Assembly: GCA_963966315.1 (NCBI GenBank)
Contig: CAWZYX010000002.1
Coordinates: 36,295-100,294 of the forward strand
Direction: 5' to 3'
DNA from: an uncultured Winogradskyella sp.
GTDB lineage: Bacteria > Bacteroidota > Bacteroidia > Flavobacteriales > Flavobacteriaceae
DNA length: 64,000 nucleotides
Part shown: in pieces, positions 5,048 through 61,867 of the stretch
Position numbering within the stretch: position 1 is the first letter of the stretch
Layout of the letters: each line of letters starts with the position of its first letter
Translations under genes and position numbers: made by a program
Notes under the pieces: model-generated
What the model was told of the DNA's origin: nothing
Seen by the model: only the letters and a program-made list of their open reading frames with translations
The model's database searches: none

Positions 5048-6412
5048 TTACAGTATGAGAAATTCAGTTAATTCTTCAACCTTGGAAATTCGTTGAATTC
5101 TAATCTTTGGATTCTTTATGGATATCTTACTAAACTTAGACACAAATATGGTTGAGAATCCGAGTTTTTCAGCTTCTGAAATGCGTTGCTCTACCCGCTG
5201 AACCGGTCGTACCTCACCGGAAAGCCCTACTTCAGCCGCAAAACAATAATCTGTTGGAATGGGACTGTCTTCATTGGAAGATAAGATCGAAGCTACCACT
5301 CCCAGATCAATGGCCGGATCGTCAACCGTAATACCGCCTGTGATGTTGAGAAACACATCTTTGGCGCCCAATCGAAAGCCGGCACGCTTTTCCAAGACAG
5401 CTAAGAGCATATTCAGTCGCTTGGCATTAAAGCCAGTTGCCGATCGTTGTGGGGTCCCGTAGACAGCTGTACTTACCAGGGCCTGTACCTCTATCATAAG
5501 AGGCCTCATTCCTTCAAGAGTAGCCACAATGGCATTACCTGAAAGGTCTCCATCTTTTTCGGAAATCAACAGCTCTGAGGGATTAGTGACTTGCCGCAGT
5601 CCGGATCCCTGCATTTCATAAATACCTAATTCATTGGTGGACCCAAACCGATTTTTGTGAGCCCGTAAAATTCTGAACACATGATTGCGATCACCTTCAA
5701 ACTGTAACACCGTGTCCACCATGTGTTCCAGGATCTTTGGTCCTGCAATATGCCCGTCTTTGGTAATATGACCAATCAGTAATACGGGAGTAGCCGTTTC
5801 CTTGGCAAACTTGATCAGTTCGGAAGTACATTCCTTGATCTGAGAAATACTGCCGGCAGAAGATTCGATATAATCACTGTGCAGAGTCTGTATGGAGTCG
5901 ATAATCACCATCTCCGGTTCCAGGGTCTCGATCTGTTTAAAAATATTCTGTGTTTTGGTCTCGGTAAGAATGTAGCAATTTTGACTATCTGGATCTACCC
6001 GCTCTGCCCGCATTTTTATCTGTTTCTGGCTTTCTTCTCCTGAAACATAGAGCGTCTTGTAAGGCAGTTGCAGGGCTATTTGCAGCAGTAAGGTACTCTT
6101 TCCAATTCCAGGCTCCCCTCCTAATAAGGTGAGCGATCCAGGAACCATACCGCCACCCAATACGCGATTAAATTCTCCATCCTGCATATTGAGGCGTGCT
6201 TCCTGAGACATATCAATCTCATTGATGCGTAAGGGTTTACTAGCGCGTTTCGGCTCCGAAACAGAGGCTGCTCTCCAATCGGTCTTATCGGGTTTCTGAA
6301 TGACCTCCTCAACGATGGTGTTCCACTGCTTGCAGGAATTACACTGCCCCTGCCACTTAGCGTACTGGGTACCACAACTCTGACAATAAAAAGCAGTCTT
6401 TACCTTAGCCAT
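5048..6412 (-). CDS. radA: DNA repair protein RadA/Sms
   Basis: 454 aa. N-terminal C4 zinc finger (CQSCGTQYAKWQGQCNSCKQWNT), Walker A GEPGIGKST, and a C-terminal Lon-protease-like domain. Confidence 0.95.
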   Translation of the reverse strand: MAKVKTAFYCQSCGTQYAKWQGQCNSCKQWNTIVEEVIQKPDKTDWRAASVSEPKRASKPLRINEIDMSQEARLNMQDGEFNRVLGGGMVPGSLTLLGGEPGIGKSTLLLQIALQLPYKTLYVSGEESQKQIKMRAERVDPDSQNCYILTETKTQNIFKQIETLEPEMVIIDSIQTLHSDYIESSAGSISQIKECTSELIKFAKETATPVLLIGHITKDGHIAGPKILEHMVDTVLQFEGDRNHVFRILRAHKNRFGSTNELGIYEMQGSGLRQVTNPSELLISEKDGDLSGNAIVATLEGMRPLMIEVQALVSTAVYGTPQRSATGFNAKRLNMLLAVLEKRAGFRLGAKDVFLNITGGITVDDPAIDLGVVASILSSNEDSPIPTDYCFAAEVGLSGEVRPVQRVEQRISEAEKLGFSTIFVSKFSKISIKNPKIRIQRISKVEELTEFLIL

Positions 6413-22335: not shown

Positions 22336-22503
22336 TTTAATTAGAACCCAATTGTGCTAAGGCATTGTAGTACACTTCGTCCTGAAAGGCTCCAAGTAAT
22401 ACAAATACCGATTTTACAAAAAATACCAGGAACAGAGCTACGGCTACAAGTGTAATTACGTCGAAGATCCTCTTTTCCCGAAATGAGTTACTGATTGATT
22501 TCA
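22336..22503 (-). CDS. Unlisted small ORF (about 55 aa) encoding a hydrophobic single-TM peptide
   Basis: Reverse-strand translation gives MKSISNSFREKRIFDVITLVAVALFLVFFVKSVFVLLGAFQDEVYYNALAQLGSN. It is below the 60-aa cutoff of the ORF track. It sits between the atpC terminator and the LexA-like gene. Coordinates are approximate. Confidence 0.3.
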
Positions 22504-22573
22504 TGACCCCTGATTTTGTTAGTTATGGTATGAAGGTACAAAATAATTAACAATATTTTAAGATTTATAACGA

Positions 22574-23350
22574 TTAATTAATCTGTACGCCTTTGATCTG
22601 CTCCAATTCCACCTTCAGTTCCTGGAACATATTAACAATACTACTCAGCTTTAATTCCTTCTCGTCGTACTCTTGAGTGTTGATGCAGCAGGTAAACTCC
22701 CATAGCTCCAAAACAGCCGATCTAGGTACCAGATAAGGTTGATAGGATTTATTGTCTGAGCTCAGCAGCAGATGGGTTTCGTTATCTTCGGGAAGGTACA
22801 CGCGTTTATATACCAGCCCATCTTCTTTGGTGAGCACAATATAAGTTCTGCCGTTTTTAAGATCTCTGATGTCCTCCAGAAATTTAGCTACTACAAAAGC
22901 TCCGTCCTTTACAGGCAACATAGAATCCCCTTTGATTGGAAAAGCCCTGTGGGTACCTGTCGGCAGGAACGGAAGTTTGATCTTTTGCAGTTGTTCTATG
23001 TACTCCGGATCGTCGTAACCCGCCAGATATCCGGCAGAAGCCTTTGCCGGAATGATCTCAATAAGATCTTCATTATTCTCATTGACGGTAACAGGAAATA
23101 ACACGCGCTTGTTTCCTACTTCAATGAAAGAAGTATCCTTGGCCAAACGCAGGTCTTTTCGCACCAGAATATCAATAGGTATGTTAAAGTAATTGGACAG
23201 GTCGATCAGTCGCTCTATAGGAGGCTCGGACCTGCCCTCTTCGTAGGAGCCTACCATTGATCGTGACCACCCCAACTCATCTGCAAAACGCTCCTGAGAC
23301 AGTTGCTTCAAATTTCTAAGATGTCTGATGTTTACCTGAATGGGTTTCAT
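22574..23350 (-). CDS. XRE-type HTH / peptidase S24 (LexA/CI-like) autocleavable transcriptional repressor
   Basis: 258 aa. N-terminal HTH_XRE (LSQERFADELGWSRSMVGSYEEGRSEP). C-terminal S24 domain with the catalytic Ser in IKGDSMLP and a downstream Lys (VYKRV). Divergent from the dnaE2 gene. Confidence 0.8.
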   Translation of the reverse strand: MKPIQVNIRHLRNLKQLSQERFADELGWSRSMVGSYEEGRSEPPIERLIDLSNYFNIPIDILVRKDLRLAKDTSFIEVGNKRVLFPVTVNENNEDLIEIIPAKASAGYLAGYDDPEYIEQLQKIKLPFLPTGTHRAFPIKGDSMLPVKDGAFVVAKFLEDIRDLKNGRTYIVLTKEDGLVYKRVYLPEDNETHLLLSSDNKSYQPYLVPRSAVLELWEFTCCINTQEYDEKELKLSSIVNMFQELKVELEQIKGVQIN

Positions 23351-23371
23351 AAATGAAATACTTTAACACGG

Positions 23372-23410
23372 TTTACTACAAATATAAGCAATACTTACTA
23401 CATATAGTAG
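23372..23410. promoter_or_regulatory. Candidate operator: tandem TTACTACA(A/T)ATA repeats plus a short inverted repeat in the lexA-like/dnaE2 divergent region
   Basis: TTTACTACAAATATA at 23372-23386 and CTTACTACATATAGTAG at 23394-23410 (CTAC..GTAG arms). Lies immediately upstream of the -7 box at 23412. Confidence 0.35.
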
Positions 23411-23411
23411 T

Positions 23412-23419
23412 TATTTTTG
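23412..23419 (+). promoter_or_regulatory. Bacteroidetes-type -7 promoter box (TATTTTTG) for dnaE2
   Basis: Matches TAnnTTTG. Lies 9 bp upstream of the ATG at 23428 (MYLNCHTYFSL...). This implies a leaderless or very short-leader transcript and supports the internal Met as the true start. Confidence 0.45.
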
Positions 23420-23427
23420 TTTTCCCA

Positions 23428-26400
23428 ATGTATTTAAACTGTCACACATACTTCAGCCTGCGTTACGGCACGATCAAACCAGAACAGCTGCTGGCCATTG
23501 CTTCAAAAAACGGTGTAAACACTCTGGCTTTGACGGACATTAACAGTACTTCTGCCTGTCTTGATCTAATGCGACTTTCTAAGAAATACAAGGTGAAACC
23601 GGTACTGGGAGTGGATTTTAGAAATAAGGCAGAGCAACAATTCATCCTTATTGCCAAAAACAACCATGGATTTCAAAATATAAACAGATATCTGTCTGAG
23701 CTTCTGCACCATCAGGATTTAAAAATTCCAGAGCGTCCGGAAGTCGTTTTAGAAGGCTGCTATGTTATTTACCCCTACCAAAAGGGTAAAGATTTTCACC
23801 TTGGGCCACAGGAGTTCTTAGGCATCAGTCCCAAAGACCTCAACCAGCTAAAGTTTTCCAAGTGGAATCAGTACCGCAATAAACTAGTAGTGCTAAAAAC
23901 AGTTTCCTTTCAGGACAAAAAGGGGTTTAATACACACAGACTTTTGCGTGCTATTGACAACAATACGTTGTTGAGCAAACTCCCCAAATCAGAAGAGGGG
24001 CGGCCCGACGACATTATGCTCCCTTATGAAGAACTGTATCAGCAGTACACTGATTTTCCTGAACTCATAAAGAACAGCAATGCTTTGCTCGATCGTTGTA
24101 ACACTTATTTCGATTTTGAAAGTAACATCCCAAAAAATCAGCGTTTCTATACCAACAATGCAGCGCTGGATTTCAGGCTACTTAAAAAGCTGAGCTATGA
24201 CGGGTTGCATTACCGTTACAAAAAACCGGGAGTGCGCATTTTTAACCGTATTGAAAAAGAGCTGCACATCATCAAAGAAAAAGGCTTTGTTTCTTATTTC
24301 CTGATCAATTGGAAGATATTGAAATACGCCCGAAGCAAAGGTTATTTCTACGTAGGTCGTGGTAGTGGTGCTAATAGCATCATCGCTTATTTACTGCGCA
24401 TTACCGATGTAGACCCTGTAGAACTGGACCTGTATTTCGAACGCTTCATTAATCTCTTTCGCACCAATCCGCCTGATTTTGACATTGATTTCTCCTGGAC
24501 AGACCGGGACGACATTACACAGTTTATTTTTAAGCGTTTTAAGCACACTGCCCTACTCACTGTCTACAATACCTTTAAATTCAGAGCGTCCATTCGGGAA
24601 CTAGGAAAGGTTTTTGGATTGCCAAAATCTGAAATGGATCTGCTCACGAGAGGCAAGTATAAGGTCAATCAGCTAGACAAGCTCTCCAGACTAGTTGTTT
24701 ATTACAGCACTTACATCGAAGGGTTTCCCAATTACTTAGGCATTCACGCCGGAGGCATCCTTATTTCAGAGCGTCCCATACATTATTATACCGCCACTTT
24801 TATGCCTCCTAAAGGCTTCCCTACCACACAGTTTGATATGATGGTTGCCGAAGATATTGGTCTCTATAAATTTGATATCCTAAGCCAGCGTGGTTTGGGA
24901 AAAATCAAAGAGGCTAGGGAAATTATTGCTTATAACCACCCAAAGCTTCCGCCTGTAGACATTCACGATATCAAGCGTTTTAAAAAGGATCCACGCATCA
25001 AAAACCTGCTCAGACGTGCCAAAGCCATTGGCTGCTTTTACGTGGAGTCGCCTGCCATGCGCATGCTACTTACCAAACTGCAGGTAGACAATTATCTGGG
25101 GTTGGTAGCGGCCAGTTCGGTCATCAGGCCGGGAGTCTCCAAATCGGGTATGATGCGTGAGTACATTTTGCGCTACCGCTACCCGGAACGACGAAAGGAA
25201 GCACATCCTGTGCTTATGGACATCATGCCTGAGACCTATGGAGTCATGGTCTATCAGGAAGATGTGATTAAAGTAGCTCATCATTTTGGAGGTTTAACCC
25301 TGGGTGAAGCCGATATGCTGCGTCGTGGCATGTCCGGTAAATTTCGCTCCAGAGAAGAGTTCTTAAAGGTAAAACAGCGATTCTTTGACAATTGCAGGAA
25401 AGCAGGGAAACCCGAAGATCTCACTAAAGAGGTCTGGCGCCAGATCGAAAGTTTTGCCGGTTATGCCTTTGCCAAAGGCCACTCAGCCTCTTATGCTGTA
25501 GAAAGCTACCAAAGCCTCTATTTGAAAGCGTATTTCCCTTTGGAATACATGGTAGCCACCATTAATAATTACGGAGGGTTTTACCGTACCGAATTTTACG
25601 TACACGAAGCTCGCATGCACGGCGCACAGATCGAAGCGCCTTGCATCAATACCAGTTCAAACGATACTGTTATTAAAGGTACCACCATCTATCTGGGATT
25701 TAAATTTCTACAATCTCTGGAATCTAAAACCATTCAATCCCTTTTAGATGAGCGCCACCGCGCAGGTGCTTATAAAAGCCTGGACGACTTTATTGAACGT
25801 GTTCCCATCTCAATAGAGCAGATAAGTATTCTTATTAAGATCGATGCGTTTAGATTTACTCAATTTCATAAACGTGAATTGCTCTGGGAGGCTCATTTAA
25901 AGATTGGGAAGACTGTAAGTGAAGAACGCCGGATGACCCTCTTTAAAAGCGAAGGGGTTAACTACAGAACGCCGGAACTACCCAGTACGGCTTTAGAGAA
26001 TGCCTTTGATCAGATAGAGCTTTTGGGTTATCCCTTGTGTAACCCCTTTCAGCTCTTAAAAACCCCCTCTTCCAATACCATGAGAGCTAAGGCCCTAAAG
26101 CACTTTGAAAAAAGACAGGTAACTATTGAAGGATATCTGGTCACTACCAAAACCACCTCTACCTCTAAACGCGAAGTAATGTTCTTTGGCACCTTTTTAG
26201 ACCGCGACGGAGATTTTATAGATACCGTACATTTTCCTCCGGTAGCTGCTAAATATCCGTTCAGAGGAAAGGGAATTTACAAAATAACCGGAACCGTCCT
26301 TATAGAGTTTGACTGTATCAATATAGAAGTATCTGAACTGGAACACCTGGCAGTTATAGAAGATCCCAGATATGCTGACGAAACCCCATTGGCCTCATGA
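23428..26400 (+). CDS. dnaE2: Error-prone DNA polymerase (DnaE2/ImuC-like Pol III alpha homolog)
   Basis: PHP domain at the N-terminus (LNCHTYFSLRYGTIKPEQLLAIASKNGVNTLALTDINS), Pol III alpha catalytic core, and an OB-fold-like C-terminus. About 990 aa from the corrected start. The ORF table lists 23353 as the start, but the upstream 25 codons overlap the promoter and operator. Confidence 0.85.
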   Translation: MYLNCHTYFSLRYGTIKPEQLLAIASKNGVNTLALTDINSTSACLDLMRLSKKYKVKPVLGVDFRNKAEQQFILIAKNNHGFQNINRYLSELLHHQDLKIPERPEVVLEGCYVIYPYQKGKDFHLGPQEFLGISPKDLNQLKFSKWNQYRNKLVVLKTVSFQDKKGFNTHRLLRAIDNNTLLSKLPKSEEGRPDDIMLPYEELYQQYTDFPELIKNSNALLDRCNTYFDFESNIPKNQRFYTNNAALDFRLLKKLSYDGLHYRYKKPGVRIFNRIEKELHIIKEKGFVSYFLINWKILKYARSKGYFYVGRGSGANSIIAYLLRITDVDPVELDLYFERFINLFRTNPPDFDIDFSWTDRDDITQFIFKRFKHTALLTVYNTFKFRASIRELGKVFGLPKSEMDLLTRGKYKVNQLDKLSRLVVYYSTYIEGFPNYLGIHAGGILISERPIHYYTATFMPPKGFPTTQFDMMVAEDIGLYKFDILSQRGLGKIKEAREIIAYNHPKLPPVDIHDIKRFKKDPRIKNLLRRAKAIGCFYVESPAMRMLLTKLQVDNYLGLVAASSVIRPGVSKSGMMREYILRYRYPERRKEAHPVLMDIMPETYGVMVYQEDVIKVAHHFGGLTLGEADMLRRGMSGKFRSREEFLKVKQRFFDNCRKAGKPEDLTKEVWRQIESFAGYAFAKGHSASYAVESYQSLYLKAYFPLEYMVATINNYGGFYRTEFYVHEARMHGAQIEAPCINTSSNDTVIKGTTIYLGFKFLQSLESKTIQSLLDERHRAGAYKSLDDFIERVPISIEQISILIKIDAFRFTQFHKRELLWEAHLKIGKTVSEERRMTLFKSEGVNYRTPELPSTALENAFDQIELLGYPLCNPFQLLKTPSSNTMRAKALKHFEKRQVTIEGYLVTTKTTSTSKREVMFFGTFLDRDGDFIDTVHFPPVAAKYPFRGKGIYKITGTVLIEFDCINIEVSELEHLAVIEDPRYADETPLAS

Positions 26401-27614
26401 ATGAAAACCGTTCCATCGTACACATGGACTTGGATACGTTTTTCGTGTCCTGCGAACGACGTTTAGACAGCCGTCTCAATGGTAAACCTATTCTTATTGG
26501 AGGTACCAGCGATCGTGGGGTAGTGGCTTCCTGCAGTTACGAAGCCCGTAAGTTTGGTGTGCATTCTGCCATGCCCATGCGTATGGCCAGGCAGCTGTGT
26601 CCCGAAGCCATAGTCTTAAGAGGCAATTCAGGAGTCTATACAAGGTTCTCTAAAGAAGTCACAGACGTTATTAAAGAAAGTGTGCCTCTTTATGAGAAAT
26701 CGTCCATTGATGAATTTTATATCGACCTCACGGGCATGGACAAGTTTTTTGGCTGCCATAAACTAGCCTCAGAACTCAGACAACGCATCATAAAAGAGAC
26801 CGGATTGCCAATCTCCTTTGGCCTGTCTGTTAATAAAACCGTATCTAAGATTGCTACCGGAGAAGCCAAACCCAATAACGAAATCAGAATACCCAGGGGT
26901 ACTGAAAAACCATTCCTGGCTCCTCTGTCGGTTAAAAAAATTCCCATGGTGGGTAAAGTAACCTATAAATCCTTATGCGATCTAGGCATCAAACGCATTA
27001 AAACGGTTCAGGAAATGCCTATGGATTTGATGCATAAAGTATTGGGTAAAAACGGTTTGTTTATCTGGAAGAAGGCTAACGGCATCGATAATAATCCTGT
27101 TATACAATACCATGAACGCAAATCCATTTCTACCGAACGCACCTTTGGTCAGGATACTACCGATATGCACAAATTAAAAGGACTCGTGGTAGCGATGACA
27201 GAAAATCTGGCTTATCAGCTGCGTCGAGGTAATAAGTTAACAGCCTGTGTTACCTTTAAAATACGTTATTCTGATTTTCAAACCTATACCCAGCAAAAGC
27301 GCATCCCCTACAGCGCCATGGACCACAACCTTATCCCTGTAGTACTGGAACTTTTTAATAAACTCTATCATCGAAGGTTGCTTGTACGGCTCATTGGTGT
27401 TCGCTTTAGTCATTTGGTAGAGGGAGGCCATCAGATCAATTTATTTGAAGACAACGAAGTGCACCTTAACCTGGCCCAGGCCATCGATAAGATGCGGGAA
27501 CGGTATGGTGATCGGGCAGTGATCAGCGCAGCAGGAATGGAAGCTAAAACCATCAGCCGCTGGAACCCTTTCACAGGAGAACCACCGCCACTTCTGGCCA
27601 ACAGACATCAGTAA
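26397..27614 (+). CDS. dinB: Y-family DNA polymerase (DinB/Pol IV-like, catalytic residues intact)
   Basis: 405 aa. HMDLDTFFVSCE (catalytic Asp pair) and SIDEFYIDLTG (Asp-Glu) are conserved, so it is not an inactive ImuB. Start overlaps the dnaE2 stop by 4 nt (ATGA), so the two are translationally coupled. Confidence 0.85.
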   Translation: MNENRSIVHMDLDTFFVSCERRLDSRLNGKPILIGGTSDRGVVASCSYEARKFGVHSAMPMRMARQLCPEAIVLRGNSGVYTRFSKEVTDVIKESVPLYEKSSIDEFYIDLTGMDKFFGCHKLASELRQRIIKETGLPISFGLSVNKTVSKIATGEAKPNNEIRIPRGTEKPFLAPLSVKKIPMVGKVTYKSLCDLGIKRIKTVQEMPMDLMHKVLGKNGLFIWKKANGIDNNPVIQYHERKSISTERTFGQDTTDMHKLKGLVVAMTENLAYQLRRGNKLTACVTFKIRYSDFQTYTQQKRIPYSAMDHNLIPVVLELFNKLYHRRLLVRLIGVRFSHLVEGGHQINLFEDNEVHLNLAQAIDKMRERYGDRAVISAAGMEAKTISRWNPFTGEPPPLLANRHQ

Positions 27615-27821
27615 TTAATGGTCCGTATGTTCCAGAATATCACCTGGCTGACAGTCTAGCGCCTTGCAAATAGCTTCCAGAGTGGAAAACCGGATCGCTT
27701 TAGCCTTACCTGTTTTCAGAATGGAAAGATTGGCATTTGTAATACCAACAGATTCTGCCAACTCATAACTCTTCATGCCTCTTTTGGCAAGCATTACATC
27801 CAAATTTACACGTATGGGCAT
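27615..27821 (-). CDS. Small XRE-family HTH transcriptional regulator (YozG-like)
   Basis: 68 aa. MLAKRGMKSYELAESVGITNANLSILKTGKAKAIRFSTLEAICKALDC is a classic HTH_XRE. 2-nt gap to the upstream membrane-protein gene. Confidence 0.8.
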   Translation of the reverse strand: MPIRVNLDVMLAKRGMKSYELAESVGITNANLSILKTGKAKAIRFSTLEAICKALDCQPGDILEHTDH

Positions 27822-27823
27822 AG

Positions 27824-28333
27824 CTATATGGTCAATTGGTTCTCCTCTTTTGCGTGTTTGGCAATTTTGAATATTTCCGACAGCACTTTAAAAAACAGTC
27901 CTAGACAGGCTATAAACAAATACGGCCAGAATCCAATTCCAATTACAATTTTACTACTAAAAAGCAACTGGTCTAAAAATGAAAAGAACAGACCAATTAA
28001 ACTGACAAGTACCAGATATCTGCCAATCTGATCGAAAATAAGGATCACCTTCTCATGGAAGGGTTTAGCCTTCATGAAATAACTCAGTGACTTTCTGAAC
28101 AGAAAAAAAGAATACACAGATAGTGCTGTGACTATATAAAGCACAACCATTCTGAAGATGATAGCGATCTTTGACCCCTCAAAGCCCATAAAATTTACTG
28201 AATCCATAGCGCTTAAAGATTCAGTCTTAAAAAAAGACAGCAAAAGAAAGACAGTGAGTAACAGCATCAATGGGATGCAACAGACAATCCATATAAAATC
28301 TACAATAGATTTAAGAACCACTAATTTTCTCAT
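27824..28333 (-). CDS. DUF2975-like multi-pass membrane protein (partner of the small XRE regulator)
   Basis: 169 aa. About 4 TM helices. The arrangement (membrane protein immediately upstream of a 68-aa HTH) is the widespread DUF2975/YozG pairing. Confidence 0.5.
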   Translation of the reverse strand: MRKLVVLKSIVDFIWIVCCIPLMLLLTVFLLLSFFKTESLSAMDSVNFMGFEGSKIAIIFRMVVLYIVTALSVYSFFLFRKSLSYFMKAKPFHEKVILIFDQIGRYLVLVSLIGLFFSFLDQLLFSSKIVIGIGFWPYLFIACLGLFFKVLSEIFKIAKHAKEENQLTI

Positions 28334-33697: not shown

Positions 33698-34177
33698 TTA
33701 CTCCTTGTTGAGCTTCTCATTGACAAGCTGATAAACAAGATGTGGTTCCCAACCGCGATAGAGCAAATAATCACAGATCTTTTTTTTACGCTTTAATGGG
33801 TGAGACTCACCAACAACAGCTATGCGTTTATCTGTTAATTCATCTAGCGTTTGAAGGTATACTTCTTCAGGTATCAAATCCATTGCCTTTTGGATGCTGT
33901 AACTTGAAATCTCTCTGAGCTTGAGTTCCCTTTTAAGGCGGGTCCTACCCCATTTCTTTATTCTAAACTTACCAAGGGCAAACTGTTCGGCAAAACGCTG
34001 TTCATTGAGGTAATTGTTTTCAATGAGGTGTACCAGAATGAGATCAATGGCCTCCGGTATCATCCGCATCTGCTTTAGTTTGTCACGCACTTCCTTATGG
34101 CAGCGTTCCTGATAGGCACAATAAGCTTCCATTCTAATCTTTGCTTCTTCTACAGAAAAGGATTGCCGATGAATCAT
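33698..34177 (-). CDS. recX: Regulatory protein RecX
   Basis: 159 aa. Three-helix-repeat protein with RecX-like composition (EAKIRMEAYCAYQERCHKEVRDKL...). There is no recA gene in the window. Confidence 0.7.
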   Translation of the reverse strand: MIHRQSFSVEEAKIRMEAYCAYQERCHKEVRDKLKQMRMIPEAIDLILVHLIENNYLNEQRFAEQFALGKFRIKKWGRTRLKRELKLREISSYSIQKAMDLIPEEVYLQTLDELTDKRIAVVGESHPLKRKKKICDYLLYRGWEPHLVYQLVNEKLNKE

Positions 34178-40707: not shown

Positions 40708-41427
40708 TTAATGGAAAACGTCATTAAAAACCTGAAGTGATTTCGGTTTCTTAAATCCCCCCAAATGTAATTCAAAATACAACAATAAGGTCTTTAAAAA
40801 TTCCCTTCTCTGCAATGCATTAAGCTTCACCGTGTTCACACTTTCAAAATCGAGGCGCATCAGATGAGAGAACAGTTCTTTTTGCATCCCATCCACTGCA
40901 TACATCGATGTTTTCTCATTTTCAAAGGTCCCGGACTCCAAATTAAAAAAGCTTTTGTTTTGGGCGGTTGTTTCTGGATAAAACCCCAGGTATTTAGTCA
41001 GTCTTAACAAAAACATCAGGTGAAAATTTGAAAACTGTTGCTGGGTATCCAGGAATTGGCATGCTGCCTCTAAGAATTCAAAAAGAGGTGTATTGGGTTC
41101 CTCTTCCCGAAGCACATTTGCAAGAATTTCTGCTAAAAAAACCGACAGTGAGGCTTTGTAAATATTTGTATGTAAAGATTTATAAGGGTAGTAACATTTA
41201 ATATCCTTGAGGTATTGTAAGGACCTGTTGACCTGGTAATTTTCATCCAGTTCCAGTTGAGATAAAGGTTGAAAATAAACAGCTCTTATCCTGGATTTCT
41301 GTGTTTTTAAAATACCCTTTTGTAAATAACTCACCACTCCCCGGTGGTTAGTGTAGCACTTGACAATCAGGTCATTTTCCTTATATCTCAAAGAAGAAAG
41401 TACGATGGCCTTACCTTTATTATGCAT
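40708..41427 (-). CDS. recO: DNA repair protein RecO
   Basis: 239 aa. N-terminal OB-fold start (KGKAIVLSSLRYKENDLIVKCYTNHRGVVSYLQKG). Length and layout match RecO. Confidence 0.7.
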   Translation of the reverse strand: MHNKGKAIVLSSLRYKENDLIVKCYTNHRGVVSYLQKGILKTQKSRIRAVYFQPLSQLELDENYQVNRSLQYLKDIKCYYPYKSLHTNIYKASLSVFLAEILANVLREEEPNTPLFEFLEAACQFLDTQQQFSNFHLMFLLRLTKYLGFYPETTAQNKSFFNLESGTFENEKTSMYAVDGMQKELFSHLMRLDFESVNTVKLNALQRREFLKTLLLYFELHLGGFKKPKSLQVFNDVFH

Positions 41428-57109: not shown

Positions 57110-59470
57110 ATGACGAGAATTACTGTAATCCCCGCCCAACTAACTAGTTTCCAATCTTTTCTTTACATCATTTTTACCAGCATTTTAAGCCTTTCTCTTT
57201 TGACTGCTCAGGAGGAACGCGACCTTGTTGACGCCTTTATCGATCATACCGATAATGCCCGTGAGGTGATCTACCTGCATCTGAACAAGTCTACCTATAT
57301 CAAGGGGGAGTCTGTTGGCTTTACAGCCTATGTATTGGATAAGAAAGATAAGATGCCCTCCCTGCTCACCACCAACCTCTATGTGAGTATCGAGGATATG
57401 GACCAAATCCCCATTGTCCAGCAACTGCTTAAGGTAGAGAACGGCGTGGCCTCCAATGTCTTTGATATCGATGATAACTTTAGCACCGGATCCTATCTGG
57501 TGAAGGCCTATACCAACTGGTCTCGTAACTTTAAAGAACCTAATTACTTCTCCGCCACCATTAAGATTATCGATCCTGCTACCGATGCCTTTGTCGATAA
57601 TGAGCGCGTAGAGAATGCCATCGATGCACAGTTCCTGCCGGAGAGCGGACACCTGCTGGCCGATGTGGTCAATAAAGTTGGGGTTGTCCTTAAAGATCCT
57701 AAAGGCTATGGGCTGGCTGATGCCTCCGGCAAAGTCCTTGACAGGAATGGGAAAGTACTCACTACTTTTCGGGTCAACCATCTGGGAATTGGGCAGTTCC
57801 TGCTCAAACCCTCGGTAGGAGACACCTTTAAGGTCGTTGTGAGCTATAACTATAAAGACTATGAGTTTTCACTTGATCAAAGTGTGCAGCCCATTGGCCT
57901 TATCCTCTCCACCTCAGTTCGCAATGAGCAGCTCACCCTTAGTGTACATACCAACCAGCGCGGACTCCAGCAATTCAAAGACCAGAATTTTCTCTTGGGC
58001 TTTCACAACGGATCAGATCTGCAAACCATTAAGCTCAGCTTTGATAAGCAAACTTCAATCCATACAATTTTTGACCTCAACCAAATGCCACCCGGAGTTA
58101 CCGTCTTTACACTCTTTAATGAGAACAGCCAGCCCATTGCCGAACGACTCTTCTTTAACTACAAGGGGCTTACTATTCACCAACTGTCCGATCTTAGTAC
58201 TACTATGGTCGAAAACGACTCTATCGATATCTCCCTGGCCTTTAAGACCATTGACCCTTCTAAGTTTCATAACATCTCCGTTTCTGTGCTCCCTGCCGAT
58301 ACCAAATCTTATAAACACCATCACAGCCTGGTCTCCTACAACTACCTGAAGCCCTACATCAATGGGCCTATCGAACAAGCCAAATACTACTTTAATGAGG
58401 TAACTCCCCAGGTAAAAGCCGATCTGGACATGCTGCTGCTTACCCAAGGCTGGTCCTCCTACAACTGGAACCAGATCTTTGATAACAAGCACAGCCTGCC
58501 TTTTGAATTTGAACGAGGCCTGAGCCTGAAAGCTAATGTCAATGGCAATCTGCGCAAGCAAAAAACCTTCGTTGTACACCCCCTGGAAGATTCACAGCAA
58601 CCGGTCTACGTGCAGCTCGATGACCAACAGAACAGTTTTCAGATGGATCAGATTTTTTTAGAAGACAAGACCTCCATTGCCCTCTCTGAAATCGATAACA
58701 AGGGTAAAATGGAACCTGCCAAGGTCTACCTGCAATTCTTCCCCAGTACCATCCCCAGACTTCAAATACCCCAATACCCTCTTGATCCCAAGCCACAGTA
58801 CAACCTTAATACCAGCTTTGAGCAAAATGTCATGTCTACTAGCACACTCGATCAAACACAGCAACTCGATGAGGTGGTGATTACCGCTGACCCCAACGAT
58901 TATAAGACCAGACTTCGAGACCTAAACCGCGAATCTAAAGGGATTGCCAGATTAGCTACAGAAGGGGACCTCAATCGTTATTTCAACGTTTTGGAATGGA
59001 TTAGAGGGCGACATGGCTTTTGGGCCAAAAGAACATTATGGACTGATGTATATATTAACGAGGAACAGCTTACAAAATTATCAGCAAAAACCTACCTGGA
59101 AACAATTAGTCTAAGTGATGTGGATTTCGTGGAATTCCTACCCAATTCTGCAAGAGGATTTAGACTAAAACTTCATATTGACTGGGAGAAGGTCAAGCTT
59201 AATAAATATGGGCCTGCAGCTAAGACCTTCGAAGCCCCACTCACCTTTAGTTCAGCAAAACAGTTTTACACCCCGGTGTACCGCTACCGTGGGGATACCT
59301 TCTATAAGAATTTTGGCACCATTGCCTGGGAGCCTGCTATACAGCTTGATACTGATGGTAAGACCCGGCTAAAGATCCAAAAACCCATTGTACCCATCAC
59401 CCTCTTTATTGAAGGCATGGACCACCTGGGGCAGCCCATCTTTTATGAACATACCTTAACTATCAATTAA
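57110..59470 (+). CDS. Secreted approximately 785-aa protein, tandem paralog 1 (MG2-like N-terminus, plug-like C-terminus; family not identified)
   Basis: Signal peptide. N-terminal EVIYLHLNKSTYIKGESVGFTAYVLD resembles the alpha-2-macroglobulin MG2 strand motif. C-terminal QLDEVVITADPN...VDFVEFLP resembles a TonB-plug-like fold. Internal bases 57512..59283 are identical to copy 2. Confidence 0.5.
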   Translation: MTRITVIPAQLTSFQSFLYIIFTSILSLSLLTAQEERDLVDAFIDHTDNAREVIYLHLNKSTYIKGESVGFTAYVLDKKDKMPSLLTTNLYVSIEDMDQIPIVQQLLKVENGVASNVFDIDDNFSTGSYLVKAYTNWSRNFKEPNYFSATIKIIDPATDAFVDNERVENAIDAQFLPESGHLLADVVNKVGVVLKDPKGYGLADASGKVLDRNGKVLTTFRVNHLGIGQFLLKPSVGDTFKVVVSYNYKDYEFSLDQSVQPIGLILSTSVRNEQLTLSVHTNQRGLQQFKDQNFLLGFHNGSDLQTIKLSFDKQTSIHTIFDLNQMPPGVTVFTLFNENSQPIAERLFFNYKGLTIHQLSDLSTTMVENDSIDISLAFKTIDPSKFHNISVSVLPADTKSYKHHHSLVSYNYLKPYINGPIEQAKYYFNEVTPQVKADLDMLLLTQGWSSYNWNQIFDNKHSLPFEFERGLSLKANVNGNLRKQKTFVVHPLEDSQQPVYVQLDDQQNSFQMDQIFLEDKTSIALSEIDNKGKMEPAKVYLQFFPSTIPRLQIPQYPLDPKPQYNLNTSFEQNVMSTSTLDQTQQLDEVVITADPNDYKTRLRDLNRESKGIARLATEGDLNRYFNVLEWIRGRHGFWAKRTLWTDVYINEEQLTKLSAKTYLETISLSDVDFVEFLPNSARGFRLKLHIDWEKVKLNKYGPAAKTFEAPLTFSSAKQFYTPVYRYRGDTFYKNFGTIAWEPAIQLDTDGKTRLKIQKPIVPITLFIEGMDHLGQPIFYEHTLTIN

Positions 59471-59518: not shown

Positions 59519-61867
59519 ATGACCACCTTTCGATCTTACAATATCCTGGTTAAGACCTTGGGCCTAATAGCTTTCTGGCTCTTGGCCCTTGCTACTATAC
59601 ATGGTCAGCAATCTACAGCTATTGTAGATGCCTTTAATGAGCATACTGCTGATGCCCGGGAGGTCATTTACCTGCATGTTAATAAATCAAGCTACATTAA
59701 AGGTGAGTCCATTGGCTTTACCGCCTACGTTCTGGATAAAAACACCAAGCGACCCGCCCTGCTTACCACCAACCTTTATGTGAGCCTCGAGACCATGGAA
59801 CAAAAACCCCTGAAGCAACTCATGCTTAAGGTTGAAAACGGTATCGCTTACAATATCTTTGAAATTGATGATTCCTTTGTCACCGGATCCTATCTCCTGA
59901 AGGCCTACACCAACTGGTCTCGTAACTTTAAAGAACCTAATTACTTCTCCGCCACCATTAAGATTATCGATCCTGCTACCGATGCCTTTGTCGATAATGA
60001 GCGCGTAGAGAATGCCATCGATGCACAGTTCCTGCCGGAGAGCGGACACCTGCTGGCCGATGTGGTCAATAAAGTTGGGGTTGTCCTTAAAGATCCTAAA
60101 GGCTATGGGCTGGCTGATGCCTCCGGCAAAGTCCTTGACAGGAATGGGAAAGTACTCACTACTTTTCGGGTCAACCATCTGGGAATTGGGCAGTTCCTGC
60201 TCAAACCCTCGGTAGGAGACACCTTTAAGGTCGTTGTGAGCTATAACTATAAAGACTATGAGTTTTCACTTGATCAAAGTGTGCAGCCCATTGGCCTTAT
60301 CCTCTCCACCTCAGTTCGCAATGAGCAGCTCACCCTTAGTGTACATACCAACCAGCGCGGACTCCAGCAATTCAAAGACCAGAATTTTCTCTTGGGCTTT
60401 CACAACGGATCAGATCTGCAAACCATTAAGCTCAGCTTTGATAAGCAAACTTCAATCCATACAATTTTTGACCTCAACCAAATGCCACCCGGAGTTACCG
60501 TCTTTACACTCTTTAATGAGAACAGCCAGCCCATTGCCGAACGACTCTTCTTTAACTACAAGGGGCTTACTATTCACCAACTGTCCGATCTTAGTACTAC
60601 TATGGTCGAAAACGACTCTATCGATATCTCCCTGGCCTTTAAGACCATTGACCCTTCTAAGTTTCATAACATCTCCGTTTCTGTGCTCCCTGCCGATACC
60701 AAATCTTATAAACACCATCACAGCCTGGTCTCCTACAACTACCTGAAGCCCTACATCAATGGGCCTATCGAACAAGCCAAATACTACTTTAATGAGGTAA
60801 CTCCCCAGGTAAAAGCCGATCTGGACATGCTGCTGCTTACCCAAGGCTGGTCCTCCTACAACTGGAACCAGATCTTTGATAACAAGCACAGCCTGCCTTT
60901 TGAATTTGAACGAGGCCTGAGCCTGAAAGCTAATGTCAATGGCAATCTGCGCAAGCAAAAAACCTTCGTTGTACACCCCCTGGAAGATTCACAGCAACCG
61001 GTCTACGTGCAGCTCGATGACCAACAGAACAGTTTTCAGATGGATCAGATTTTTTTAGAAGACAAGACCTCCATTGCCCTCTCTGAAATCGATAACAAGG
61101 GTAAAATGGAACCTGCCAAGGTCTACCTGCAATTCTTCCCCAGTACCATCCCCAGACTTCAAATACCCCAATACCCTCTTGATCCCAAGCCACAGTACAA
61201 CCTTAATACCAGCTTTGAGCAAAATGTCATGTCTACTAGCACACTCGATCAAACACAGCAACTCGATGAGGTGGTGATTACCGCTGACCCCAACGATTAT
61301 AAGACCAGACTTCGAGACCTAAACCGCGAATCTAAAGGGATTGCCAGATTAGCTACAGAAGGGGACCTCAATCGTTATTTCAACGTTTTGGAATGGATTA
61401 GAGGGCGACATGGCTTTTGGGCCAAAAGAACATTATGGACTGATGTATATATTAACGAGGAACAGCTTACAAAATTATCAGCAAAAACCTACCTGGAAAC
61501 AATTAGTCTAAGTGATGTGGATTTCGTGGAATTCCTACCCAATTCTGCAAGAGGATTTAGACTAAAACTTCATATTGACTGGGAGAAGGTCAAGCTTAAT
61601 AAATATGGGCCTGCAGCTAAGACCTTCGAAGCCCCACTCACCTTTAGTTCAGCAAAACAGTTTTACACCCCGGTGTACCGTTACCGCGGCGATCGGTTCT
61701 ATAAGAACTTTGGTACAATAGCCTGGCAGCCTGCTCTGCAGCTCGATACTGATAGCAAGACCAGCTTTAAAATCCAAAAACCCATTGTGCCCATCAAACT
61801 CTTCATTGAAGGTATTACAAAGTCTGGACAGGCCGTATACTCAGAAAAATCAATTATTTTTAATTAA
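59519..61867 (+). CDS. Secreted approximately 785-aa protein, tandem paralog 2
   Basis: 782 aa. Same architecture. The N-terminal 130 aa and C-terminal 60 aa are diverged from copy 1, while the central 590 aa are identical. Confidence 0.5.
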   Translation: MTTFRSYNILVKTLGLIAFWLLALATIHGQQSTAIVDAFNEHTADAREVIYLHVNKSSYIKGESIGFTAYVLDKNTKRPALLTTNLYVSLETMEQKPLKQLMLKVENGIAYNIFEIDDSFVTGSYLLKAYTNWSRNFKEPNYFSATIKIIDPATDAFVDNERVENAIDAQFLPESGHLLADVVNKVGVVLKDPKGYGLADASGKVLDRNGKVLTTFRVNHLGIGQFLLKPSVGDTFKVVVSYNYKDYEFSLDQSVQPIGLILSTSVRNEQLTLSVHTNQRGLQQFKDQNFLLGFHNGSDLQTIKLSFDKQTSIHTIFDLNQMPPGVTVFTLFNENSQPIAERLFFNYKGLTIHQLSDLSTTMVENDSIDISLAFKTIDPSKFHNISVSVLPADTKSYKHHHSLVSYNYLKPYINGPIEQAKYYFNEVTPQVKADLDMLLLTQGWSSYNWNQIFDNKHSLPFEFERGLSLKANVNGNLRKQKTFVVHPLEDSQQPVYVQLDDQQNSFQMDQIFLEDKTSIALSEIDNKGKMEPAKVYLQFFPSTIPRLQIPQYPLDPKPQYNLNTSFEQNVMSTSTLDQTQQLDEVVITADPNDYKTRLRDLNRESKGIARLATEGDLNRYFNVLEWIRGRHGFWAKRTLWTDVYINEEQLTKLSAKTYLETISLSDVDFVEFLPNSARGFRLKLHIDWEKVKLNKYGPAAKTFEAPLTFSSAKQFYTPVYRYRGDRFYKNFGTIAWQPALQLDTDSKTSFKIQKPIVPIKLFIEGITKSGQAVYSEKSIIFN

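What the first reader, a model, noticed from the sequence alone, without database searches (positions are those of the whole stretch)
22574..27614. SOS-type mutagenesis cassette: XRE-S24 repressor divergent from dnaE2 and an active Y-family polymerase, with no imuA/imuB
The arrangement is a LexA/CI-like autocleaving repressor (HTH_XRE plus S24 with GDSM) transcribed divergently from dnaE2. The dnaE2 stop overlaps by 4 nt (ATGA) the start of a Y-family polymerase that keeps all catalytic acidic residues. Classical cassettes are lexA-imuA-imuB-dnaE2, with an inactive ImuB. Here the Y-family partner looks catalytically competent, there is no imuA, and the repressor has an XRE rather than a LexA winged-helix DNA-binding domain.
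Basis: partly seen in the sequence, partly recalled or inferred. Interest (0 to 1): 0.6.

Follow-up and report, generated by a model that had tools for sequence, protein, structure and literature searches.

The report
Known Bacteroidetes SOS polymerase cassette

Summary
The window holds a 258-aa HTH_XRE+S24 repressor (22574-23350, -), divergent from a DnaE-type polymerase and a 405-aa Y-family polymerase (26397-27614). The two polymerase genes are joined by an ATGA overlap.

The polymerase start needs correcting to 23428. This leaves a 77-bp intergenic control region.

The interpretation also holds. The Y-family catalytic residues are intact, and no imuA, imuB or canonical lexA lies in the window.

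None of this is new:
- **Repressor:** it belongs to the "non-canonical LexA" family of Bacteroidetes (Sánchez-Osuna 2021). An 87%-identical ortholog is listed in that paper.
- **Polymerases:** the pair is the "Bacteroid_PolY2-DnaE2" (DnaE2B-PolY-RecA) module of Timinskas & Venclovas (2019, 2026). They list it for Winogradskyella in the same gene order and with the same C-terminal motifs.
- **Spread:** at least 66 of 80 related Flavobacteriaceae loci keep the cassette (74 keep dnaE2).

The one small addition concerns the operator. The conserved elements are CTAC-N5-GTAG (23398-23410) and CTACAAATATAAG (23376-23388), not the canonical CTAA-N5-TTAG. Each touches or overlaps a putative -7 promoter box.

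Damage induction, autocleavage and complex formation remain untested here. Interest is low.

The parts
22574..23350 (-). Non-canonical LexA (CI-like HTH_XRE + S24 autoprotease), 258 aa. Key codons: HTH about 23231-23296; KASAGY cleavage loop 23027-23044 (A106-G107); GDSM 22919-22930 (S143); VYKRV 22799-22813 (K182); family-specific C-terminal helix region 22589-22657.
   Evidence: Pfam HTH_3 and Peptidase_S24. It is 87% identical to WP_076619641.1, which is listed in Table S9 of PMC8565304. The C-terminal domain is 42.5% identical (E 1e-42) to the EMSA-validated P. actiniarum regulator. Key residues are invariant in orthologs; coordinates.
23351..23427 (.). 77-bp divergent promoter/operator region shared by the repressor gene and the dnaE2-dinB operon.
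   Evidence: Near-invariant across 74 Flavobacteriaceae loci. Consensus: TTTAACA..TT[A/G]CTACAAATATAAGCAA-N5-ACTAC-N5-GTAG[C/T]TAATTTTG.
23376..23388 (.). Operator-like site A, CTACAAATATAAG (CTAC-N5-TAAG, an imperfect dyad). Positions 23379-23386 read TATATTTG on the minus strand, a Bacteroidetes-type -7 box (TAnnTTTG) for the repressor gene.
   Evidence: 57 of 74 loci are identical and the rest differ at one position. It has 2 mismatches to the published CTAA-N5-TTAG motif. The -7 consensus is from established knowledge of Bacteroidetes promoters; the assignment here is inference.
23398..23410 (.). Operator-like site B, CTACATATAGTAG (perfect CTAC-N5-GTAG dyad; with flanks ACTAC-N5-GTAGT, 23397-23411). 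This is the best candidate repressor binding site.
   Evidence: The arms are conserved while the spacer is free (22 spacer variants). It is a perfect palindrome in 53 of 74 loci. Of 57 matches in 1.09 Mb of related loci, 53 are at this promoter. The window has 2 matches against 0.33 expected.
23412..23419 (+). Putative -7 promoter box TATTTTTG (TAnnTTTG) for dnaE2-dinB. It abuts site B and ends 8 nt before the ATG, which implies a very short or absent leader.
   Evidence: TAATTTTG/TATTTTTG is conserved at this position in almost all loci. Function is inferred, not shown.
23428..26400 (+). dnaE2 (DnaE2B-type C-family polymerase), 990 aa, with a reduced PHP domain and intact polymerase acidic residues (PPDFDIDFS 24469-24495; YKFDILSQRG 24865-24894).
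   Evidence: Pfam PHP (only profile positions 2-95 of 164), DNA_pol3_alpha, finger and HHH_6. It is below the cut-off for both the DnaE1 and DnaE2A NCBIfam models. Motifs are invariant in 72 orthologs. Start codon supported. Bacteroidetes DnaE2 with reduced PHP/thumb is described in PMC3919608.
26397..27614 (+). dinB-type Y-family polymerase ("Bacteroid_PolY2"), 405 aa. Motifs: catalytic D11 (26421-26444 motif) and D105/E106 (26703-26720 motif); clamp-type motif QINLF 27432-27446; RecA-NT-like motif 27450-27533; conserved C-terminal tail 27534-27611.
   Evidence: alignment to E. coli DinB; conservation. The RecA-NT motif and tail are nearly identical to those listed for Winogradskyella sp. PG-2 BAO75795.1 in Table S4 of PMC6511836. 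Coordinates.
26397..26400 (+). ATGA stop/start overlap between dnaE2 and dinB (one operon, possible translational coupling).
   Evidence: ORF coordinates. Many relatives instead have a gap of about 10-60 nt or more between the two genes, so the overlap itself is not conserved.

Best explanation
This is the chromosomal SOS-type translesion/mutagenesis module typical of Flavobacteriaceae.

**Resting state.** A non-canonical LexA (CI-like HTH plus S24 autoprotease, CTAA-N5-TTAG cluster) binds as a dimer to dyad-N5-dyad sites in the 77-bp intergenic region. The sites are CTAC-N5-GTAG at 23398-23410 and the half-degenerate CTACAAATATAAG at 23376-23388. Their centres are 22 bp apart. Site A contains a putative -7 box for the repressor gene, and site B abuts a putative -7 box for the polymerase operon. 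Occupancy would therefore shut off both the repressor gene and the dnaE2-dinB operon.

**After DNA damage.** RecA-ssDNA filaments stimulate self-cleavage at A106-G107 by the S143/K182 dyad, and both promoters fire. The operon then supplies two catalytically competent polymerases:
- a DnaE2B-type C-family enzyme;
- a DinB-like PolY2, which carries a clamp-binding-type motif, a RecA-N-terminus-like motif and a conserved tail.

These are proposed to work with RecA as a DnaE2B-PolY-RecA mutasome that needs no ImuA or ImuB.

**Shown here:** gene content, domains, catalytic and cleavage residues, homology to validated family members, operator/promoter conservation, and wide vertical conservation.

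**Inferred:** actual binding, RecA-dependent cleavage, damage induction, transcription start sites and physical complex formation.
For: - **Domains and residues:**
- **Family membership of the repressor:** the 87%-identical ortholog WP_076619641.1 is in Table S9 of PMC8565304. The C-terminal domain is 42.5% identical (E 1e-42) to P. actiniarum WP_025606010.1, which was shown by EMSA and RT-qPCR to bind CTAA-N5-TTAG and to be mitomycin-C inducible. Identity to the GGA-N5-TCC cluster representative is only 33%.
- **Close precedent:** in E. anophelis a divergent regulator/error-prone-polymerase pair with a variant dyad (TTAC-N5-GTAA) was shown to be bound and induced.
- **Operator evidence:** arms conserved with a free spacer, 53 of 74 perfect palindromes; 53 of 57 genomic matches lie at this promoter.
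- **Polymerase module:** Table S4 of PMC6511836 lists Winogradskyella PolY2 with order DnaE2->PolY and the same RecA-NT motif and tail. The text of PMC6511836 and PMC12926913 describes the module.
- **Chromosomal and vertically inherited:** housekeeping flanks atpDC and TonB receptors, even GC content, the full cassette in at least 66 of 80 related loci, and no close relative in phage or viral collections.
Against: - No site in this window matches the published CTAA-N5-TTAG consensus exactly. Sites A and B each have 2 arm mismatches. The position that is canonical in a few relatives (CTAATTTTGTTAG) is degenerate here.
- Site A's invariant spacer suggests it may be conserved mainly as a promoter element rather than as an operator.
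- -33 elements are not recognisable.
- radA, recX and recO in the same window have no such sites. If the regulator is an SOS regulator, its regulon here may be minimal.
- No experiment exists for this ortholog group. The PolY2-DnaE2B-RecA complex is only a computational proposal in the literature.
- Direct sequence comparison of the S24 domain with LexA is weak (hhalign E 0.014; phmmer found nothing in the PDB). It rests on Pfam and on the published family alignment.
Confidence: 0.85

Rival explanations
1. The genes and regulator are the same, but the two polymerases are only co-regulated. They act independently at lesions, DinB as an ordinary Pol IV and DnaE2B as a separate extender, without forming a PolY-DnaE2-RecA complex.
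For: - Both enzymes keep full active sites.
- DinB has its own clamp-type motif QINLF.
- The ATGA coupling is not conserved: many relatives have a gap between the genes, and some have several hundred bp.
Against: - The gene pair is linked in at least 66 of 80 related loci.
- PolY2 carries a RecA-NT-like motif and a strongly conserved C-terminal tail (RWNPFxGEPPPLLANR). Such a tail serves as a partner-binding element in UmuC and YqjW (PMC6511836).
- AlphaFold modelling in PMC12926913 is reported to support complexes.
Confidence: 0.25
2. PolY2 works chiefly as an ImuB-like adaptor. It tethers DnaE2B to the clamp and to RecA, and its own catalysis is dispensable, so this would be a functional ImuB analogue that has not yet lost its active site.
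For: - PolY2 has a clamp motif plus a RecA-NT motif, as ImuB does.
- DnaE2B shows only a weak clamp-like motif (RMTLF, partly conserved).
Against: - Catalytic Asp/Glu and the steric gate are under strong purifying selection in 66 orthologs.
- The protein scores above the Pol IV equivalog cut-off.
- There is no ImuB-C domain.
Confidence: 0.2
3. The XRE-S24 protein is a local repressor that does not respond to RecA or DNA damage. It might be a non-cleaving regulator, or one answering to another signal, so the cassette would not be SOS-type.
For: - No experiment exists on this ortholog group.
- The operator differs from the validated consensus.
- No other DNA-repair gene in the window carries a site.
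Against: - The Ala-Gly site and the Ser/Lys dyad are invariant.
- The C-terminal domain is 42.5% identical to a mitomycin-inducible, EMSA-validated homolog.
- A variant-dyad paralog in E. anophelis is inducible together with its divergent polymerase.
- The target genes are exactly the core that SOS-like systems always control.
Confidence: 0.08
4. This is a prophage or mobile-element remnant: a CI repressor with phage-borne polymerase genes.
For: - The HTH is CI/XRE-like.
- The best phage hit is an Elizabethkingia phage protein, 37.5% identical over the S24 part.
- The published hypothesis is that the family descends from phage repressors.
Against: - No integrase, phage or transposase genes flank it; it lies between atpDC and TonB-receptor genes.
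- GC content is even across the region.
- There is no relative in 2.9 million viral contigs.
- The repressor is 75-91% identical across many genera of one family and keeps the same neighbours, which indicates vertical inheritance.
Confidence: 0.02

Closest known systems
Non-canonical LexA of Bacteroidetes, CTAA-N5-TTAG cluster (Sánchez-Osuna et al., NAR 2021, PMC8565304; validated in Pontibacter actiniarum, with a variant in Elizabethkingia anophelis)
   Same: - PF01381 HTH plus S24, with Ala-Gly, Ser and Lys, and an extra C-terminal helix region.
- C-terminal domain 42.5% identical to the validated protein; an 87%-identical ortholog is in the paper's own list.
- Its own promoter carries dyad-N5-dyad sites.
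- It is divergent from an error-prone polymerase operon, as in E. anophelis.
   Different: - The conserved dyad here is CTAC-N5-GTAG plus CTAC-AAATA-TAAG, not CTAA-N5-TTAG.
- This dyad is absent from the paper's site tables as held.
- The regulon visible here is only the cassette itself.
- This ortholog has not been tested experimentally.
Bacteroidetes PolY2-DnaE2 / DnaE2B-PolY-RecA putative mutasome (Timinskas & Venclovas, NAR 2019 PMC6511836; NAR 2026 PMC12926913)
   Same: - An active Y-family polymerase with a RecA-NT-like motif and a conserved tail lies next to a short DnaE2 with a reduced PHP domain.
- There is no ImuA or ImuB-C.
- The DnaE2->PolY order is the one listed for Winogradskyella sp. 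PG-2, and the motifs are near-identical.
   Different: Nothing substantive; this is another member. The complex itself is still only predicted.
Canonical lexA-imuA-imuB-dnaE2 (ImuABC, DnaE2A) mutagenesis cassette of Proteobacteria and Actinobacteria
   Same: It is a damage-response module that pairs a Y-family protein with a second PolIIIα copy under an S24 repressor. The Y-family partner carries clamp and RecA-type interaction motifs.
   Different: - There is no ImuA.
- The Y-family partner is catalytically intact and lacks ImuB-C.
- The DnaE2 belongs to a different clade (DnaE2B).
- The repressor has a CI-type HTH instead of a winged-helix HTH.
- The gene order is reversed.
HdiR (Lactococcus/Streptococcus) and UmuDAb (Acinetobacter): non-LexA S24 regulators with minimal SOS regulons
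   Same: Both are S24 self-cleaving repressors other than LexA that control mainly error-prone polymerases.
   Different: They have a different evolutionary origin and different DNA-binding domains, targets (umuDC-type) and operators.

Membership tests
Bacteroidetes non-canonical LexA (PMC8565304) | N-terminal multi-helical CI/XRE-type HTH (PF01381), not the LexA winged helix | tested here: met
   HTH_3 E 8e-14 at residues 8-62; no LexA_DNA_bind hit. hhalign matches the λ CI HTH at residues 16-40.
Bacteroidetes non-canonical LexA (PMC8565304) | C-terminal S24 domain with an Ala-Gly scissile bond and a Ser/Lys dyad | tested here: met
   Peptidase_S24 above the gathering score. A106-G107, S143 and K182 are invariant in 15 orthologs. 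S143 and K182 fall on LexA S119 and K156 in hhalign, and all three sites align with the LexA positions in the published alignment.
Bacteroidetes non-canonical LexA (PMC8565304) | Sequence homology to validated or listed members, and assignment to a cluster | tested here: met
   87% identity to WP_076619641.1, which is in Table S9. C-terminal domain 42.5% identical (E 1e-42) to P. actiniarum (CTAA cluster) against 33% (E 7e-20) to S. agarivorans (GGA cluster).
Bacteroidetes non-canonical LexA (PMC8565304) | Extra C-terminal α-helix after the S24 core | tested here: inconclusive
   Residues 232-254 (ELKLSSIVNMFQELKVELEQIKG) align with the corresponding segment of family members. No structure was predicted here.
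Bacteroidetes non-canonical LexA (PMC8565304) | Autoregulation through a fixed-spacer dyad-N5-dyad motif in its own promoter (canonical CTAA-N5-TTAG for this cluster) | tested here: inconclusive
   The geometry is met: CTAC-N5-GTAG is conserved in arms only. The canonical sequence is not met: there are 2 arm mismatches, and a canonical site occurs in only 5 of 74 relatives and not in the window. The paper documents such variant dyads. Binding is untested.
Bacteroidetes non-canonical LexA (PMC8565304) | RecA-dependent self-cleavage and DNA-damage induction of targets | not testable with these tools
   This needs cleavage assays and RT-qPCR.
DnaE2B-PolY-RecA / Bacteroid_PolY2-DnaE2 (PMC6511836, PMC12926913) | Y-family polymerase with an intact active site | tested here: met
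   D11, D105, E106 and F16 align to E. coli DinB D8, D103, E104 and F13. They are conserved in 66 orthologs. Pol IV NCBIfam score is above the cut-off.
DnaE2B-PolY-RecA / Bacteroid_PolY2-DnaE2 (PMC6511836, PMC12926913) | RecA-NT-like motif followed by a conserved C-terminal tail in PolY | tested here: met
   The window has DNEVHLNLAQAIDKMRERYGDRAVISAA + GMEAKTISRWNPFTGEPPPLLANRHQ. Winogradskyella PG-2 is listed with DNEMYLNLSNAMDKMRERYGDRAVMNAA + GMEAKTISRFNPFNGEPPPLLANRHQ. Conserved across loci.
DnaE2B-PolY-RecA / Bacteroid_PolY2-DnaE2 (PMC6511836, PMC12926913) | Adjacent short DnaE2 with reduced PHP and an intact polymerase site | tested here: met
   990 aa. The PHP match covers only profile positions 2-95 of 164. 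PDFDID and KFD motifs are invariant. It is below the cut-off for the DnaE1 equivalogs. It shares an operon with PolY. No phylogeny against DnaE2A/B references was made.
DnaE2B-PolY-RecA / Bacteroid_PolY2-DnaE2 (PMC6511836, PMC12926913) | Genome lacks imuA and imuB | tested here: inconclusive
   Neither is present in the 64-kb window. The rest of the genome is not available. The literature states absence for this group.
DnaE2B-PolY-RecA / Bacteroid_PolY2-DnaE2 (PMC6511836, PMC12926913) | Physical PolY-DnaE2-RecA complex | not testable with these tools
   No multimer modelling or biochemistry is available here.
Canonical ImuA-ImuB-DnaE2 cassette | Catalytically dead ImuB with an ImuB-C domain, plus the RecA-like ImuA | tested here: not met
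   The Y-family protein is active-type with no extra β-rich ImuB-C domain. There is no RecA-like ORF in the cassette or in the window.
Canonical LexA | Winged-helix LexA_DNA_bind N-terminal domain | tested here: not met
   Only XRE-type HTH families match. No NCBIfam LexA model matches.

The most novel reading that the evidence does not exclude
In the Winogradskyella-like Flavobacteriaceae this ortholog group may have shifted its operator specificity from CTAA-N5-TTAG to CTAC-N5-GTAG, with a second, promoter-embedded half-degenerate site 22 bp away. It may run a minimal, self-contained regulon consisting of itself plus a (near-)leaderless dnaE2B-polY2 operon. That would make it a dedicated switch for a two-active-polymerase, RecA-dependent mutasome rather than a global SOS regulator.
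Probability: 0.45. Interest if true: 0.3.

Novelty: already known. Interest (0 to 1): 0.12.

Why it matters
The finding matters little beyond annotation. It shows that a sequence-only reader can recognise a real and biologically coherent module. However, the repressor family and the ImuA/ImuB-less two-polymerase module are both in the literature, with orthologs of these very genes listed.

Practical value is limited to three points:
- The gene start of dnaE2 is corrected; public gene calls use the 25-codon-longer ORF.
- The window gives a clean, very well conserved 77-bp control region in which to test operator specificity of the non-canonical LexA family.
- It offers a simple system in which to test whether the predicted DnaE2B-PolY-RecA mutasome exists.

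Tried and rejected
- **S24 domain against the PDB.** phmmer of the S24 half found nothing. hhalign against λ CI matched only the HTH, and against LexA was weak (E 0.014). Residue mapping therefore rests on Pfam and on the published family alignment.
- **PDB search with DnaE2.** It returned only DnaE1 structures, so it could not classify DnaE2A versus DnaE2B.
- **GGA-N5-TCC, the motif of the other cluster.** There are 15 matches against 15.8 expected, which is chance.
- **The only perfect CTAA-N5-TTAG in the window (40368).** It lies inside a TonB-receptor ORF and is taken as chance.
- **The second CTAC-N5-GTAG (34295).** It has a GC-rich spacer and lies in the signal-peptide coding part of a large LTD protein, about 120 bp from recX. 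It is taken as chance.
- **CTGATTTTGTTAG upstream of the 55-aa ORF.** It is not conserved as a dyad in relatives.
- **Non-coding scan for operator-like sites upstream of radA, recX and recO.** None were found.
- **Phage origin of this copy.** There is no relative in viral contigs and only distant phage hits.
- **Rfam and tRNA scans.** Nothing was found.
- **Not attempted:** structure prediction and fold search, because sequence-level membership was already decisive.
Full report
**1. What is there**

ORF listing and translation confirm three genes:
- a 258-aa protein at 22574-23350 (-);
- a DnaE-type polymerase ending at 26400 (+);
- a 405-aa protein at 26397-27614 (+), whose ATG overlaps the polymerase stop as ATGA.

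Pfam gives HTH_3 (E 8e-14) plus Peptidase_S24 (E 6.5e-7) for the first. It gives PHP, DNA_pol3_alpha, finger and HHH_6 for the second, and IMS plus IMS_C for the third. NCBIfam places the third above the Pol IV equivalog cut-off (280.7 against 256). UmuC scores only 94 bits. The DnaE protein is below the cut-off both for DnaE1 models (503 against 1002) and for the "error-prone polymerase" model (436 against 939).

**2. Correction of the dnaE2 start**

The ORF as listed starts at 23353, 2 nt from the repressor start. Three lines of evidence point to ATG 23428 (MYLNCH...) instead:
- Orthologs in the related loci that keep dnaE2 align from that residue.
- 71 of 74 have no upstream in-frame ATG.
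- The 25 extra codons run through a DNA segment conserved as palindromes and promoter boxes, not as protein.

Public gene calls use the long form. The true intergenic region is 23351-23427 (77 bp).

**3. The repressor**

A protein search gives 2614 relatives. The top ones are 83-91% identical, all from Flavobacteriaceae or Bacteroidota, and NCBI names them "XRE family" or "LexA family transcriptional regulator".

One of them, P0057, is WP_076619641.1 of Winogradskyella sp. J14-2 and is 87% identical. It is listed in Table S9 of Sánchez-Osuna et al. 2021 (PMC8565304) among homologs of the Bacteroidetes SOS regulators.

Using that paper's own alignment, the C-terminal domain of the window protein compares as follows:
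- 42.5% identical (E 1e-42) to the P. actiniarum regulator, which was validated by EMSA and mitomycin induction (CTAA-N5-TTAG cluster);
- 33% identical (E 7e-20) to the S. agarivorans regulator (GGA-N5-TCC cluster).

KASAGY (A106-G107), GDSM (S143) and VYKRV (K182) are invariant in 15 orthologs. They fall on the LexA, CI and UmuD cleavage and catalytic positions in that alignment; hhalign against LexA supports S143 and K182.

The paper reports four relevant things:
- Bacteroidetes lack canonical LexA.
- These CI-like S24 proteins bind dyad-N5-dyad motifs and control error-prone polymerases, including DinB-PolIIIα operons.
- Paralogs use variant dyads.
- In E. anophelis a regulator and its divergent error-prone polymerase are both bound and induced.

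**4. The polymerases**

The alignment to E. coli DinB puts D11, D105, E106 and F16 on D8, D103, E104 and F13. These motifs are invariant or nearly so in 66 orthologs.

After the little-finger domain come three further elements, all conserved:
- QINLF, a clamp-type motif;
- DNEVHLNLAQAIDKMRERYGDRAVISAA;
- the tail GMEAKTISRWNPFTGEPPPLLANRHQ.

Table S4 of Timinskas & Venclovas 2019 (PMC6511836) lists Winogradskyella sp. PG-2 BAO75795.1 as "Bacteroid_PolY2", system "PolY-DnaE2", order "DnaE2->PolY". Its RecA-NT-like motif and tail are almost the same. [quoted passage not shown] The 2026 survey (PMC12926913) names it DnaE2B-PolY-RecA and states that DnaE2B genomes lack ImuA and ImuB.

The DnaE protein keeps PPDFDIDFS and YKFDIL, the polymerase acidic residues. 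It has a truncated PHP match. This fits the "reduced PHP and thumb" noted for Bacteroidetes DnaE2 (PMC3919608).

**5. The control region**

The intergenic DNA of 74 loci is strikingly conserved: TTTAACA..TT[A/G]CTACAAATATAAGCAA-N5-ACTAC-N5-GTAG[C/T]TAATTTTG.

- **Site B (window 23398-23410, CTACATATAGTAG).** The arms are conserved and the spacer is free (22 variants). It is a perfect palindrome in 53 of 74 loci. This is the signature expected of a dimer operator.
- **Specificity of the site B motif.** Of 57 CTAC-N5-GTAG matches in 1.09 Mb of related loci, 53 are at this promoter. The window has 2 matches against 0.33 expected.
- **Site A (23376-23388, CTACAAATATAAG).** It is invariant including its spacer. 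It contains TATATTTG on the minus strand.
- **Promoter boxes.** Site B is followed at once by TATTTTTG. Both boxes match the Bacteroidetes -7 consensus TAnnTTTG, which is established knowledge. Their assignment to the repressor and dnaE2 promoters is inference.
- **The canonical motif.** The CTAA-N5-TTAG sequence that the paper predicts upstream of some of these regulators (CTAATTTTGTTAG) occurs at the adjoining position in only 5 of 74 loci. It is degenerate in the window.
- **Not previously listed.** CTAC-N5-GTAG is not in the paper's tables of variant dyads. This is the only modest addition made here, and it needs EMSA.

**6. Context and rival explanations**

- **Window content.** The window is ordinary chromosome: ileS, radA, panCD, glmS, atpDC, recX, recO, gdhA, metG, gmk and TonB receptors. 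GC content is even. No tRNA or Rfam hits were found.
- **Missing genes.** No imuA, imuB, recA or winged-helix lexA is present.
- **No other sites.** No operator-like sites lie upstream of radA, recX or recO. The other motif matches are intragenic and look like chance.
- **Phage origin of this copy.** It is excluded by the absence of relatives in viral contigs and by only distant phage hits.
- **Loci without dnaE2-dinB next to the repressor.** In a few loci the operator is still present (L010). The neighbours there are other genes, for example an HTH-Fic pair (L010) or a DnaQ-GIY-YIG exonuclease downstream (L080). The exonuclease is a regulon member noted in the paper.

**7. Verdict**

The cassette is a well-conserved, already described system in two respects:
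- non-canonical LexA, experimentally validated in relatives;
- the Bacteroidetes PolY2-DnaE2B module, so far only predicted to form a RecA-dependent mutasome.

What remains untested for this locus is repressor binding, cleavage, induction and complex formation.

Noticed in passing
window 57110-59470 (+) and 59519-61867 (+): Two tandem ~785-aa ORFs with no Pfam match. They are 91% identical overall but 100% identical over about 590 central residues, with diverged N- and C-termini. This suggests recent duplication with gene conversion, or an assembly effect.
   Followed up: partly
window 22337-22504 (-): A 55-aa single-transmembrane ORF lies 69 nt downstream of the repressor on the same strand. 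It is called as a gene in public assemblies and conserved at this position only in a subset of relatives at 40-50% identity. It has no conserved SOS-type dyad upstream. Whether it is co-transcribed with the repressor, for example as a damage-induced membrane peptide, is unknown.
   Followed up: partly
window 23362-23368: A TTTAACA box in the repressor's 5'UTR, 12-18 nt upstream of its start codon on the minus strand. It is conserved in most of the 74 loci. Its role is not explained; it could be a translation signal or a further regulatory site.
   Followed up: no
L080:7775-9160 and the equivalent position in L031, L032, L037, L040-L050, L056: In many relatives the gene directly after the repressor encodes a DnaQ-like exonuclease fused to GIY-YIG (N-terminal sequences). 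This is the COG0847 regulon member noted by Sánchez-Osuna et al. It is absent from this position in the window.
   Followed up: partly
window 5048-6412 (-), 33698-34177 (-), 40708-41427 (-): radA/sms, recX and recO lie in the same 64-kb window, but none has an operator-like dyad in its upstream region. This is consistent with a small regulon for this repressor.
   Followed up: yes
window 27612-28333: The dinB stop codon (27612-27614) directly abuts the stop codon of a convergent HTH_26 regulator gene (27615-27821, -). That gene is paired with a DUF2975 membrane protein (27824-28333, -). There is no room for a separate terminator between the convergent genes.
   Followed up: no
L006, L008, L015, L018, L020-L023, L040, L041, L045, L047 (intergenic regions): In several relatives 170-1400 bp of extra DNA is inserted, either between the repressor gene and the conserved operator block or between that block and dnaE2. 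The nature of the inserts was not examined.
   Followed up: no
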